DNA of 64,000 bases from Escherichia coli (lineage in GTDB: Bacteria > Pseudomonadota > Gammaproteobacteria > Enterobacterales > Enterobacteriaceae): NCBI RefSeq assembly GCF_024502345.1, contig NZ_JALDNN010000001.1; one strand, given 5' to 3'. Positions 43,539-43,796 of the stretch are shown here, in pieces. Position 1 is the first letter of the stretch; each line of letters starts with the position of its first letter. The notes under the pieces are model-generated. The model was not told the origin of the DNA and searched no databases. It saw only the letters and a program-made list of their open reading frames with translations. The position numbers were made by a program, and so were the translations under genes.

Positions 43539-43796
43539 TTATAACTTCGTGGTATCAAGTCCGGCGGCTTTGAGTCGCTCGGTAAGATTTCTCATTTTGC
43601 TGAACTCTGTAGCAAAGCTGGCTTTAAGTCCTACACCTTCGCAAAACTCTTTTGCCGTGACGTTTTTCAGATGGTCAGCGTATTTGATCATCTGGAGGTG
43701 CATTTCCATCGTTTGGCTATTTCGTGGTGCGCTGCTAATGGCTTGCTTAATGTTCTCGTAGATCTGGGTTTCTGTCATTTTTATCTCACCTATCAA
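43539..43796 (-). CDS. hypothetical small alpha-helical protein, possible HTH
   Basis: 85-aa ORF (alternative start MTETQIY, 79 aa); putative helix-turn-helix around TAKEFCEGVGLKASFATEF. Confidence 0.45.
   Translation of the reverse strand: MIGEIKMTETQIYENIKQAISSAPRNSQTMEMHLQMIKYADHLKNVTAKEFCEGVGLKASFATEFSKMRNLTERLKAAGLDTTKL

What the first reader, a model, noticed from the sequence alone, without database searches (positions are those of the whole stretch)
43539..43796. Small putative HTH protein divergent from the thiM leader
A 79–85 aa alpha-helical ORF on the minus strand has a possible helix-turn-helix (TAKEFCEGVGLKASFATEF). It sits at the edge of the islet, with its start region ~190 bp from the TPP riboswitch. 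It may be a small regulator or a prophage/islet-associated DNA-binding protein. Coding status is uncertain.
Basis: inference. Interest (0 to 1): 0.35.

Follow-up and report, generated by a model that had tools for sequence, protein, structure and literature searches.

The report
Orphan RptR repressor beside thiM
The small ORF is a real gene for an RptR-family repressor, a family described in 2025 as the off-switch of restriction and phage-defence islands; here the restriction gene it once controlled has been lost, so it is an ordinary leftover regulator.

Summary
The ORF is real and coding. The gene is 43539-43778 (-), 79 aa, starting at the ATG rather than the upstream TTG. It matches Pfam HTH_73 (E 2e-30). 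It is 69% identical to EPEC RptR (PDB 9R2Z; Zhang et al., NAR 2025), and a confident AlphaFold model superposes on that structure (TM 0.93). The DNA-contact residues T57-K61 and the dimer residues are kept.

Its own promoter carries two RptR hexamers, TAGCTA and TATCTA, 18 bp apart around the -10 box. This is the layout shown experimentally to allow full repression, and it is the only such pair in the 64-kb window. dN/dS among thiM-linked copies is 0.03-0.08.

The gene lies at the integrase-distal end of a decayed integrative defence islet (41705-43977). Intact relatives of that islet insert into the first 82 nt of the thiM TPP-riboswitch leader. In E. coli B the 94%-identical gene (ECD_02033) heads an operon with the restriction enzyme EcoBLMcrX. 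In this window, homology to E. coli B stops at the rptR stop codon, and no restriction or RM gene follows.

Most likely it is an orphan, self-repressing RptR. Novelty is low: it is a member of a known, annotated family.

The parts
43539..43778 (-). rptR homologue: 79-aa RptR/HTH_73-family repressor gene (coordinates include the stop codon)
   Evidence: Pfam PF24718 E 2.3e-30. Profile hit to PDB 9R2Z E 2.9e-36. The model superposes on 9R2Z at TM 0.93, rmsd 1.1 A. 53/77 residues are identical to EPEC RptR and dN/dS is 0.03-0.08.
43785..43790 (-). Shine-Dalgarno sequence GGTGAG, 6 nt upstream of the ATG
   Evidence: Read directly from the sequence.
43809..43837 (-). Predicted sigma-70 promoter of rptR: -35 TAGACT (43837-43832), 17-bp spacer, -10 TATATT (43814-43809)
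   Evidence: It is the only promoter-like site found on either strand in 43300-44150. The same layout occurs with better -35 boxes (TTGATT, TTGACT) in BL21 and plasmid S30.
43818..43823 (.). Predicted RptR binding hexamer TAGCTA, at the centre of the 12-bp perfect palindrome AATTAGCTAATT (43815-43826), directly upstream of the -10 box
   Evidence: TAGCTA is the experimentally defined RptR site (PMC12255303).
43800..43805 (.). Second predicted RptR hexamer: TATCTA on the gene strand (TAGATA on the + strand), directly downstream of the -10 box and 18 bp from the first
   Evidence: It is one of the four permitted variants in PMC12255303. It forms the only pair of sites at 9- or 18-bp spacing in the 64-kb window.
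41705..43977 (.). The islet as a whole: 2273 bp, 36.7% G+C, replacing about 90 bp of the K-12 rcnR-thiM spacer
   Evidence: K-12 homology ends at 41704 and resumes at 43978.
43978..44059 (+). attR-type repeat: the first 82 nt of the thiM leader, overlapping the TPP riboswitch (43981-44077)
   Evidence: It is 100% identical to both copies of the 82-bp direct repeat that flanks the intact island in E. coli EC17GD31.
43891..43900 (+). ATGGGGTACA motif, a possible arm-type integrase site (inference)
   Evidence: One copy here. Two tandem copies occur at the same place in EC17GD31, BL21 and 2018-01-1CC.
42625..42717 (+). Relic of the 3' end of the island's tyrosine integrase gene
   Evidence: tblastn of the EC17GD31 integrase, residues 402-432: 55% identity, E 4.5e-6 against the islet and 1.3e-4 against the whole window.
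43174..43371 (+). Relic of a small island gene (homologue of L017 8590-8835) that has lost its start
   Evidence: tblastn of residues 16-81: 77% identity, E 2.5e-33. No ORF of 30 aa or more is listed there.

Best explanation
The ORF encodes an RptR-family repressor: a 9-kDa, four-helix protein that acts as a homodimer.

Shown by others for EPEC RptR: the dimer reads the 6-bp palindrome TAGCTA (TAGATA, TATCTA and TATATA are also allowed). It binds cooperatively to hexamers arrayed on a 9-bp register over the -10 box of its own promoter. It needs two sites for full repression, and so keeps the downstream restriction or defence operon switched off.

Shown here: the window's copy keeps the fold, the DNA-contact residues and the dimer residues. 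This is the 'site / non-site / site' layout that bound RptR at full occupancy and repressed like wild type in that study.

Inferred: in this strain RptR represses its own promoter.

Shown here: the gene is the integrase-distal end gene of an integrative defence islet that inserts into the first 82 nt of the thiM leader. In this window the integrase end and the restriction cargo are gone. In E. coli B the 94%-identical gene heads an operon with the modification-dependent nuclease EcoBLMcrX, but homology to E. coli B ends at the rptR stop codon here.

The gene is therefore an orphan autoregulator left behind by a decayed defence islet. No local target other than itself is detectable.
For: Family membership:
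- Pfam HTH_73 E 2.3e-30.
- Profile hit to PDB 9R2Z 'RptR transcriptional repressor' E 2.9e-36.
- AF2 model pLDDT 94.4 superposes on 9R2Z at TM 0.93, rmsd 1.1 A, 68% identity; nothing else in the PDB is below E 0.6.

Residues:
- T57-E58-F59-S60-K61 are identical to EPEC RptR.
- E25, L65, R68, L69, A72 and L74 are kept (read against PMC12255303).
- G56A is the second commonest residue at that position in a diverse family alignment (13 of 64).

Operator and promoter:
- Promoter TAGACT-17-TATATT.
- TAGCTA at 43818-43823 and TATCTA at 43800-43805, the only pair at 9- or 18-bp spacing in 64 kb.
- Hexamers on the same 9-bp register lie at -58 to -27 from the ATG in eight other loci from E. coli, Salmonella and V. 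cholerae, although the flanking DNA is unrelated.

Selection: dN/dS is 0.039 against BL21 (dS 0.77), 0.028 against plasmid S30 and 0.077 against EC17GD31.

Context:
- The intact island has an 82-bp perfect direct repeat of the thiM leader, with the integrase at one end and rptR at the other.
- 554 of 5426 complete E. coli genomes have rptR contiguous with the thiM leader, 339 have this islet type and 123 have the intact integrase end.
- In BL21, rptR is followed after 46 bp by DUF6998, which matches PADLOC mREase_II at E 7.6e-101.
- Tn10 insertions in that upstream ORF (ECD_02033) impaired EcoBLMcrX restriction (PMC5487053).

Orphan status:
- BL21 homology starts at 43545.
- tblastn finds no EcoBLMcrX, no 810-aa HsdM and no second RptR anywhere in the window.
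Against: - No binding, dimerisation or expression data exist for this allele.
- The -35 box (TAGACT) is weaker than in relatives, and one of the ancestral sites has decayed (TATCTA to TATCTT). Autoregulation may therefore be weakened.
- The published work tested two TAGCTA sites. The TATCTA variant is inferred to bind from C/A and G/T redundancy, and was not tested as a full site in this arrangement.
- The purifying selection was measured largely between lineages in which the gene still had, or recently had, cargo. It does not prove selection after orphaning.
- No convincing terminator follows the gene (z -0.30). Read-through toward the two co-oriented small ORFs 1 kb downstream cannot be excluded.
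Confidence: 0.82

Rival explanations
1. Retained trans-acting regulator. The orphan RptR is kept because it acts on other RptR-type operators in the cell. It would dampen or silence resident or incoming RptR-controlled type I RM or defence islands, which share the same TAGCTA operators.
For: The recognition segment T57-K61 is identical to that of EPEC RptR, and the operators are the same across genera (PMC12255303). RptR supplied in trans abolished defence by the EPEC island (PMC12255303). The gene is intact and low in dN/dS in lineages without RM cargo. RMS-linked and thiM-linked copies can occur in the same genome: up to 3 places per genome, and strain GMF054 has 2. Other mobile elements carry rptR with no adjacent RM genes called.
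Against: O157-type genomes hold a single copy and no RptR-linked RM system (one place per record). The window contains no second operator pair. No phage among 50,697 records carries a homologue, which argues against a dedicated anti-defence role. The published affinity is low (KD about 185 nM), so autorepressed levels may be too small to act in trans.
Confidence: 0.12
2. Functionless relic. The gene is intact only because the loss of its cargo is recent. It is neither needed nor meaningfully expressed, and will decay.
For: The islet is visibly decaying. There are integrase and small-gene relics and the cargo is lost. One operator unit is mutated here and a different one in EC17GD31. Database variants carry several extra substitutions (P0006), and a deletion fusion to a neighbouring ORF exists (P0128). 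The -35 box is weak.
Against: The same islet, with the gene intact, is found in 339 complete genomes from varied hosts and sources, including cattle, human, baboon and fresh-water isolates, at 99.6-100% identity. The pair of sites needed for repression, the Shine-Dalgarno sequence and all key residues are intact.
Confidence: 0.3
3. Recombination directionality factor. A small DNA-binding protein at the att-proximal end of the island helps the integrase to excise the element.
For: It lies about 200 bp from the att repeat and about 55 bp from a possible arm-type motif. In other elements rptR directly follows a tyrosine integrase gene.
Against: There is no similarity to any excisionase family; Pfam gives only HTH_73. 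In about half of published cases the gene is the first gene of hsdM operons, and the rptR-to-hsdM gap is a fixed 53 bp while the upstream DNA varies. Its conserved sites lie in its own promoter and none was found in the attL-int interval of L017. The experimentally shown role is promoter repression (PMC12255303).
Confidence: 0.03
4. Regulator of thiMD. The divergently placed repressor controls the island-borne replacement promoter of thiM.
For: The native thiM promoter has been replaced by island DNA, and the two genes are divergent.
Against: The two hexamers lie 155-178 bp upstream of the start of the thiM leader, and no further site lies between them and the leader. The same repressor and operator occur at loci with no thiM.
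Confidence: 0.03

Closest known systems
RptR of enteropathogenic E. coli E2348/69 (RMS-proximal transcriptional regulator; PDB 9R2Z; Zhang et al., Nucleic Acids Res 2025, PMC12255303)
   Same: Both are 79 aa and 69% identical (53 of 77 residues). They share the fold (TM 0.93), an identical DNA-contact segment T57-K61 and conserved dimer residues. Both have TAGCTA-type hexamers on a 9-bp register over the -10 box of their own promoter.
   Different: EPEC RptR heads a seven-gene island (hsdM-hsdS-darT2-darG2-hsdR) and has three TAGCTA repeats. The window's copy has no downstream operon, and has two sites (TAGCTA and TATCTA) separated by a non-site unit. It also carries V24M and G56A.
ECD_02033 of E. 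coli B / BL21(DE3), the ORF upstream of ecoBLmcrX (Fomenkov et al., PLoS One 2017, PMC5487053)
   Same: It occupies the same chromosomal position, beside the thiM leader at the edge of the islet. It is 87% identical in DNA and 94% in protein (5 differences), with the same promoter and operator block and the same upstream DNA up to the riboswitch.
   Different: In E. coli B it is followed after 46 bp by the modification-dependent nuclease EcoBLMcrX (DUF6998), and insertions in it are polar on restriction. In the window, homology ends at the stop codon and the nuclease gene is absent.
Controller (C) proteins of type II restriction-modification systems
   Same: Both are small dimeric DNA-binding proteins encoded as the first gene of a restriction operon, and both autoregulate through palindromic boxes in their own promoter.
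   Different: C proteins are Xre-type HTH proteins that bind two adjacent major grooves over long C-boxes, and usually activate and then repress. This protein has no HTH_3 or HTH_31 match and reads a 6-bp palindrome. It is not a member of that family.
Integrative islands that target the 5' end of a gene and bring a replacement promoter (for example the dusA-specific islands, PMC4482086)
   Same: The parent islet of this gene is flanked by a direct repeat of the target's 5' region and supplies new upstream DNA for the target gene.
   Different: Here the target is a riboswitch leader (82 nt of the thiM TPP element), not a coding 5' end. This concerns the islet, not the ORF itself.

Membership tests
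RptR / Pfam HTH_73 (PF24718) | Significant sequence similarity to characterised RptR over the full length | tested here: met
   Pfam E 2.3e-30, residues 8-77 against profile positions 1-70 of 71. Profile against 9R2Z E 2.9e-36. 53 of 77 residues identical.
RptR / Pfam HTH_73 (PF24718) | Single-domain protein of about 79 aa with four helices and a long C-terminal helix 4 | tested here: met
   AF2 pLDDT 94.4 with helices 3-15, 22-37, 42-49 and 53-71. Foldseek against 9R2Z gives TM 0.93, rmsd 1.1 A.
RptR / Pfam HTH_73 (PF24718) | DNA-contact residues Thr57-Lys61, with Glu58 and Lys61 invariant | tested here: met
   The window has T57 E58 F59 S60 K61. E58 is present in 60 of 64 and K61 in 55 of 64 sequences of a diverse alignment.
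RptR / Pfam HTH_73 (PF24718) | Dimer-interface residues Glu25, Leu65, Arg68, Leu69, Ala72 and Leu74 | tested here: met
   All are present. Val24 is Met. Dimerisation itself was not tested.
RptR / Pfam HTH_73 (PF24718) | At least two TAGCTA-type hexamers on a 9-bp register overlapping the -10 box of the gene's own promoter | tested here: met
   TAGCTA at 43818-43823 and TATCTA at 43800-43805 flank the -10 box at 43809-43814. This is the only such pair in 64 kb.
RptR / Pfam HTH_73 (PF24718) | First gene of a type I RM or other restriction/defence operon (typical but not universal: 54 of 117 homologues in PMC12255303) | tested here: not met
   No co-oriented gene follows for about 1 kb. tblastn finds no HsdM or EcoBLMcrX in the window. 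BL21 homology ends at the stop codon.
RptR / Pfam HTH_73 (PF24718) | Binds its operator and represses its promoter | not testable with these tools
   This needs EMSA and reporter assays. It has been shown only for the EPEC protein (PMC12255303).
Type II RM controller (C) proteins (Xre-type HTH) | HTH_3 / HTH_31-type domain | tested here: not met
   Pfam returns only HTH_73 and PADLOC gives no Control_protein hit. By contrast, a neighbouring island gene in L017 does hit Control_protein.
Excisionase / recombination directionality factors | Similarity to a known Xis/RDF family | tested here: not met
   No Pfam or NCBIfam excisionase hit. The fold search finds only RptR.

The most novel reading that the evidence does not exclude
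The orphan RptR is not inert. Because every RptR reads the same TAGCTA operators, a solitary copy kept on a decayed islet (about 6% of complete E. coli genomes carry this islet type) could act in trans. It would turn down any RptR-controlled restriction or defence island that is resident or newly acquired. That would change how easily such islands establish and how well the strain resists phage, a form of regulatory cross-talk between mobile defence elements.
Probability: 0.12. Interest if true: 0.55.

Novelty: new member of a known kind. Interest (0 to 1): 0.22.

Why it matters
The result settles an uncertain ORF. It is a genuine, conserved gene of a family whose mechanism was solved in 2025, so no new biology is needed to explain it.

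Its modest value lies in context. About one complete E. coli genome in ten carries an RptR gene beside thiM (554 of 5426). Most of these, including the O157:H7 lineage, have lost the restriction gene it once controlled. This gives a natural set of orphan repressors for testing whether defence-island regulators cross-talk.

The parent islet is also worth noting in its own right. It uses the thiM riboswitch leader as its attachment site and replaces the thiM promoter.

Tried and rejected
- NCBIfam and PADLOC gave no hit for the ORF. PHROGs gave only an unnamed family.
- I first suspected a link to three-recombinase elements (GInt/SE), because in V. cholerae and Salmonella the gene follows such modules. 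The rptR-to-hsdM spacing is fixed while the upstream DNA varies, and the window has no such module, so that link is incidental.
- I considered a C-protein or excisionase identity and rejected both on domain and fold evidence.
- I looked for a terminator after the gene. The hairpin is no better than shuffled sequence (z -0.30).
- I looked for a relic of hsdM or ecoBLmcrX downstream and found none.
- I looked for other operator pairs in the window and found none.
- Searching the literature with guessed O157 locus tags, to find expression data, returned nothing useful.
- A search of 50,697 phage records for homologues found none, which weakens a phage anti-defence reading.
- The co-occurrence of orphan and RM-linked copies could be judged only roughly from summary counts.

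Full report
**The observation.** The window is E. coli chromosome, with the gene order rcnB-rcnA-rcnR / islet / thiM-thiD-yegX. The 258-bp stretch is 100% identical to many O157:H7 genomes. The ORF reported at 43539-43796 (-) exists. The true gene is the 79-aa form that starts at the ATG at 43778:
- Homologues are about 79 aa and begin at the equivalent Met.
- RefSeq annotates 240 nt.
- A GGTGAG Shine-Dalgarno sequence lies 6 nt upstream of the ATG.
- The upstream TTG sits almost on the predicted transcription start.

The TPP riboswitch is at 43981-44077.

**Coding status.**
- The protein matches Pfam PF24718 (HTH_73, 'HTH-like domain') at E 2.3e-30.
- It has 734 homologues in the word-indexed search, typically 73-78% identical across Vibrio, Shewanella, Salmonella and other Gammaproteobacteria.
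- It falls into only 138 clusters at 50% identity among 1.84 billion representatives, so the family is small and tightly conserved.
- Nei-Gojobori dN/dS is 0.039 against the BL21 copy (dS 0.77), 0.028 against a plasmid copy and 0.077 against EC17GD31.

**What it is.** A profile built from 64 diverse homologues hits one solved structure, PDB 9R2Z, at E 2.9e-36. The AlphaFold2 model (pLDDT 94.4) superposes on 9R2Z at TM 0.93, rmsd 1.1 A and 68% identity. Nothing else in the PDB is significant. 9R2Z is RptR, the 'RMS-proximal transcriptional regulator' of enteropathogenic E. coli (Zhang et al., Nucleic Acids Res 2025, PMC12255303).

That paper reports the following:
- RptR is a four-helix, 9-kDa homodimer.
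- The two helix-4 copies are modelled as straddling a single major groove.
- The minimal site is the palindrome TAGCTA, with TAGATA, TATCTA and TATATA also permitted.
- Three 9-bp repeats overlap the -10 box of its own promoter.
- Two sites, adjacent or separated by a non-site unit, are needed and sufficient for full binding and repression.
- Over-expression silences the downstream type I RM / DarTG2 island.

**Membership tests.**
- The window protein is 53/77 identical to EPEC RptR.
- The contact segment T57-E58-F59-S60-K61 is identical.
- The dimer residues E25, L65, R68, L69, A72 and L74 are kept.
- The differences V24M and G56A are at variable positions; Ala is the second commonest residue at position 56.
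- The only sigma-70-like promoter in 43300-44150 is on the gene's strand: TAGACT (43837-43832), 17 bp, TATATT (43814-43809).

On the gene strand the promoter reads TATCTT-aat-TAGCTA-att-TATATT-att-TATCTA. These are four units on a 9-bp register. The second (43818-43823) and fourth (43800-43805) are permitted RptR hexamers, and they bracket the -10 box. This is the 'site / non-site / site' layout that the paper found fully bound and fully repressed.

It is the only pair of hexamers at 9- or 18-bp spacing in the 64-kb window, which holds 35 single hexamers in all. Hexamers on the same 9-bp register and at the same distance from the ATG occur upstream of the gene in BL21, two other E. coli islets, a plasmid, two RM-linked E. 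coli loci, Salmonella and V. cholerae, although the flanking DNA is unrelated.

The one typical feature that is not met is a downstream restriction operon.

**Surroundings.** K-12 homology ends at 41704 (the end of rcnR) and resumes at 43978, 3 nt before the riboswitch. The 2273-bp islet, at 36.7% G+C, replaces about 90 bp of K-12 DNA that includes the native thiM promoter region.

An intact version of the islet exists in E. coli EC17GD31. Its layout is:
- rcnR
- TPP aptamer copy
- tyrosine integrase
- HNH nuclease (PADLOC type IV methyl-directed REase)
- a C-protein-like HTH gene
- serine recombinase
- further genes
- rptR on the opposite strand
- TPP riboswitch
- thiM

That island is flanked by an 82-bp perfect direct repeat equal to the first 82 nt of the thiM leader. 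The window's copy of the repeat is 43978-44059. Both aptamer copies pass the Rfam threshold, at 71.2 and 61.3 bits.

The window retains only the right-hand part of the island, about 880 bp from 43099 onward, together with three remnants:
- a relic of the integrase 3' end at 42625-42717;
- a start-less relic of a small island gene at 43174-43371;
- one ATGGGGTACA motif, which is duplicated in the intact islands.

Across 5426 complete E. coli genomes:
- 554 have rptR contiguous with the thiM leader;
- 339 have the islet type seen in this window;
- 123 have the intact integrase end.

**What it once controlled.** In BL21(DE3) and strain 2018-01-1CC, the gene at the same place (94% protein identity) is followed after 46 bp by a DUF6998 gene. 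That gene matches PADLOC's type II methyl-directed restriction enzyme model at E 7.6e-101. It is EcoBLMcrX.

Fomenkov et al. (PLoS One 2017, PMC5487053) mapped two Tn10 insertions that impaired restriction of T4gt to the upstream 81-codon ORF, ECD_02033, 'annotated as a transcription regulator'. [quoted passage not shown]

Homology between BL21 and the window begins at 43545, exactly at the rptR stop codon. tblastn finds no EcoBLMcrX, no large HsdM and no second RptR in the window. The window's gene is therefore an orphan.

Elsewhere the family heads type I RM operons with embedded defence genes, often just after three-recombinase (GInt/SE-type) modules. It also occurs directly after a DUF6538-type integrase in elements of about 9 kb that carry a capsid-E gene, and on small resolvase elements.

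**Mechanism.**
- Shown by others for the EPEC protein: dimer formation, TAGCTA recognition, the two-site requirement and autorepression.
- Shown here: homology, fold, residues, operator geometry, selection, islet anatomy and loss of cargo.
- Inferred: the O157-type protein represses its own promoter and has no other local target.

No convincing terminator follows the gene. Read-through toward the two co-oriented small ORFs 1 kb downstream cannot be excluded, but it is not supported by any operator or by conserved linkage.

**Rivals.**
- A trans-acting role on other RptR operators is possible but unsupported in O157-type genomes, which carry one copy. Phages do not carry the gene.
- A neutral relic is plausible given the decay around it.
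- An excisionase role or a thiM-regulating role is unlikely. The sites lie 155-178 bp from the thiM leader, the fold and family differ from excisionases, and the gene is linked to hsdM in loci where no integrase lies within the flanks examined.

**Novelty.** The family, its structure and its mechanism are published. The thiM-linked proteins WP_001318412 and WP_000141032 appear in that paper's homologue tables. The exact protein is in public databases on at least 1000 contigs, named 'transcription factor'. The rcnR-thiM site is listed in a supplement of the E. coli defence-island survey as holding a type IV RM islet (PMC10121019).

What is new here is only the description of this copy as an orphan, and the anatomy of its parent islet. 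Interest is low.

Noticed in passing
window 43978-44059; L017 1721-1802 and 9453-9534: The thiM TPP-riboswitch leader is the attachment site of an integrative defence islet. An 82-bp perfect direct repeat of the first 82 nt of the leader flanks the intact island. In intact islands the native thiM promoter plus a near-complete aptamer copy (61.3 bits) sit directly upstream of the integrase gene, so integrase expression might respond to thiamine. The literature searches I made turned up no description of this.
   Followed up: partly
window 43797-43977: Island DNA has replaced the K-12 thiM promoter. The best sigma-70-like match upstream of the leader is only 6 of 12 (CTTCCC-16-TATAGA), against 8-9 of 12 in K-12. 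What drives thiMD in islet-bearing strains is unclear.
   Followed up: partly
window 41816-42130 (-) and 42140-42487 (-): Two small ORFs (104 and 115 aa) with signal-peptide-like N-termini and no Pfam family lie between rcnR and the integrase relic, where attL and the integrase 5' end should be. A database protein (P0128) fuses RptR residues 1-48 to the C-terminal half of a homologue of the 115-aa ORF, showing that deletions continue at this locus.
   Followed up: partly
window 45753-46580 (+): yegX (glycoside hydrolase family 25) is split by an in-frame stop at 46044-46046. ORFs 45753-46046 and 46083-46580 are in the same frame. RefSeq flags the same gene as a pseudogene with an internal stop in strain MLI023K1.
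   Followed up: partly
window 43891-43900; L017 9353-9375; L002 6314-6350: The motif ATGGGGTACA occurs once here and as two nearby copies in intact or less decayed islets, between rptR and the att repeat. These may be arm-type integrase binding sites.
   Followed up: no
L005-L015 (V. cholerae, Salmonella): rptR followed by hsdM (about 810 aa), hsdS, variable defence genes and hsdR sits immediately after three-recombinase-plus-small-protein modules of the GInt/SE type. The variable genes include GmrSD, OLD/UvrD-like and SLFN-like genes. The rptR-to-hsdM gap is exactly 53 bp in both genera.
   Followed up: partly
L020, L021, L024 (Buttiauxella, Pantoea): A DUF6538-type tyrosine integrase followed by rptR lies at one end of elements of about 9 kb. 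These elements contain a Phage_cap_E capsid gene and many small ORFs, which suggests phage-satellite-like elements carrying a solitary RptR.
   Followed up: no
proteins P0121, P0178, P0210, P0249, P0173, P0177, P0179, P0192, P0237: The RptR domain also occurs as tandem duplicates within one polypeptide, fused to an AAA-like C-terminal region of about 400 aa, and behind long Lys/Ala/Thr-rich N-terminal tails.
   Followed up: no
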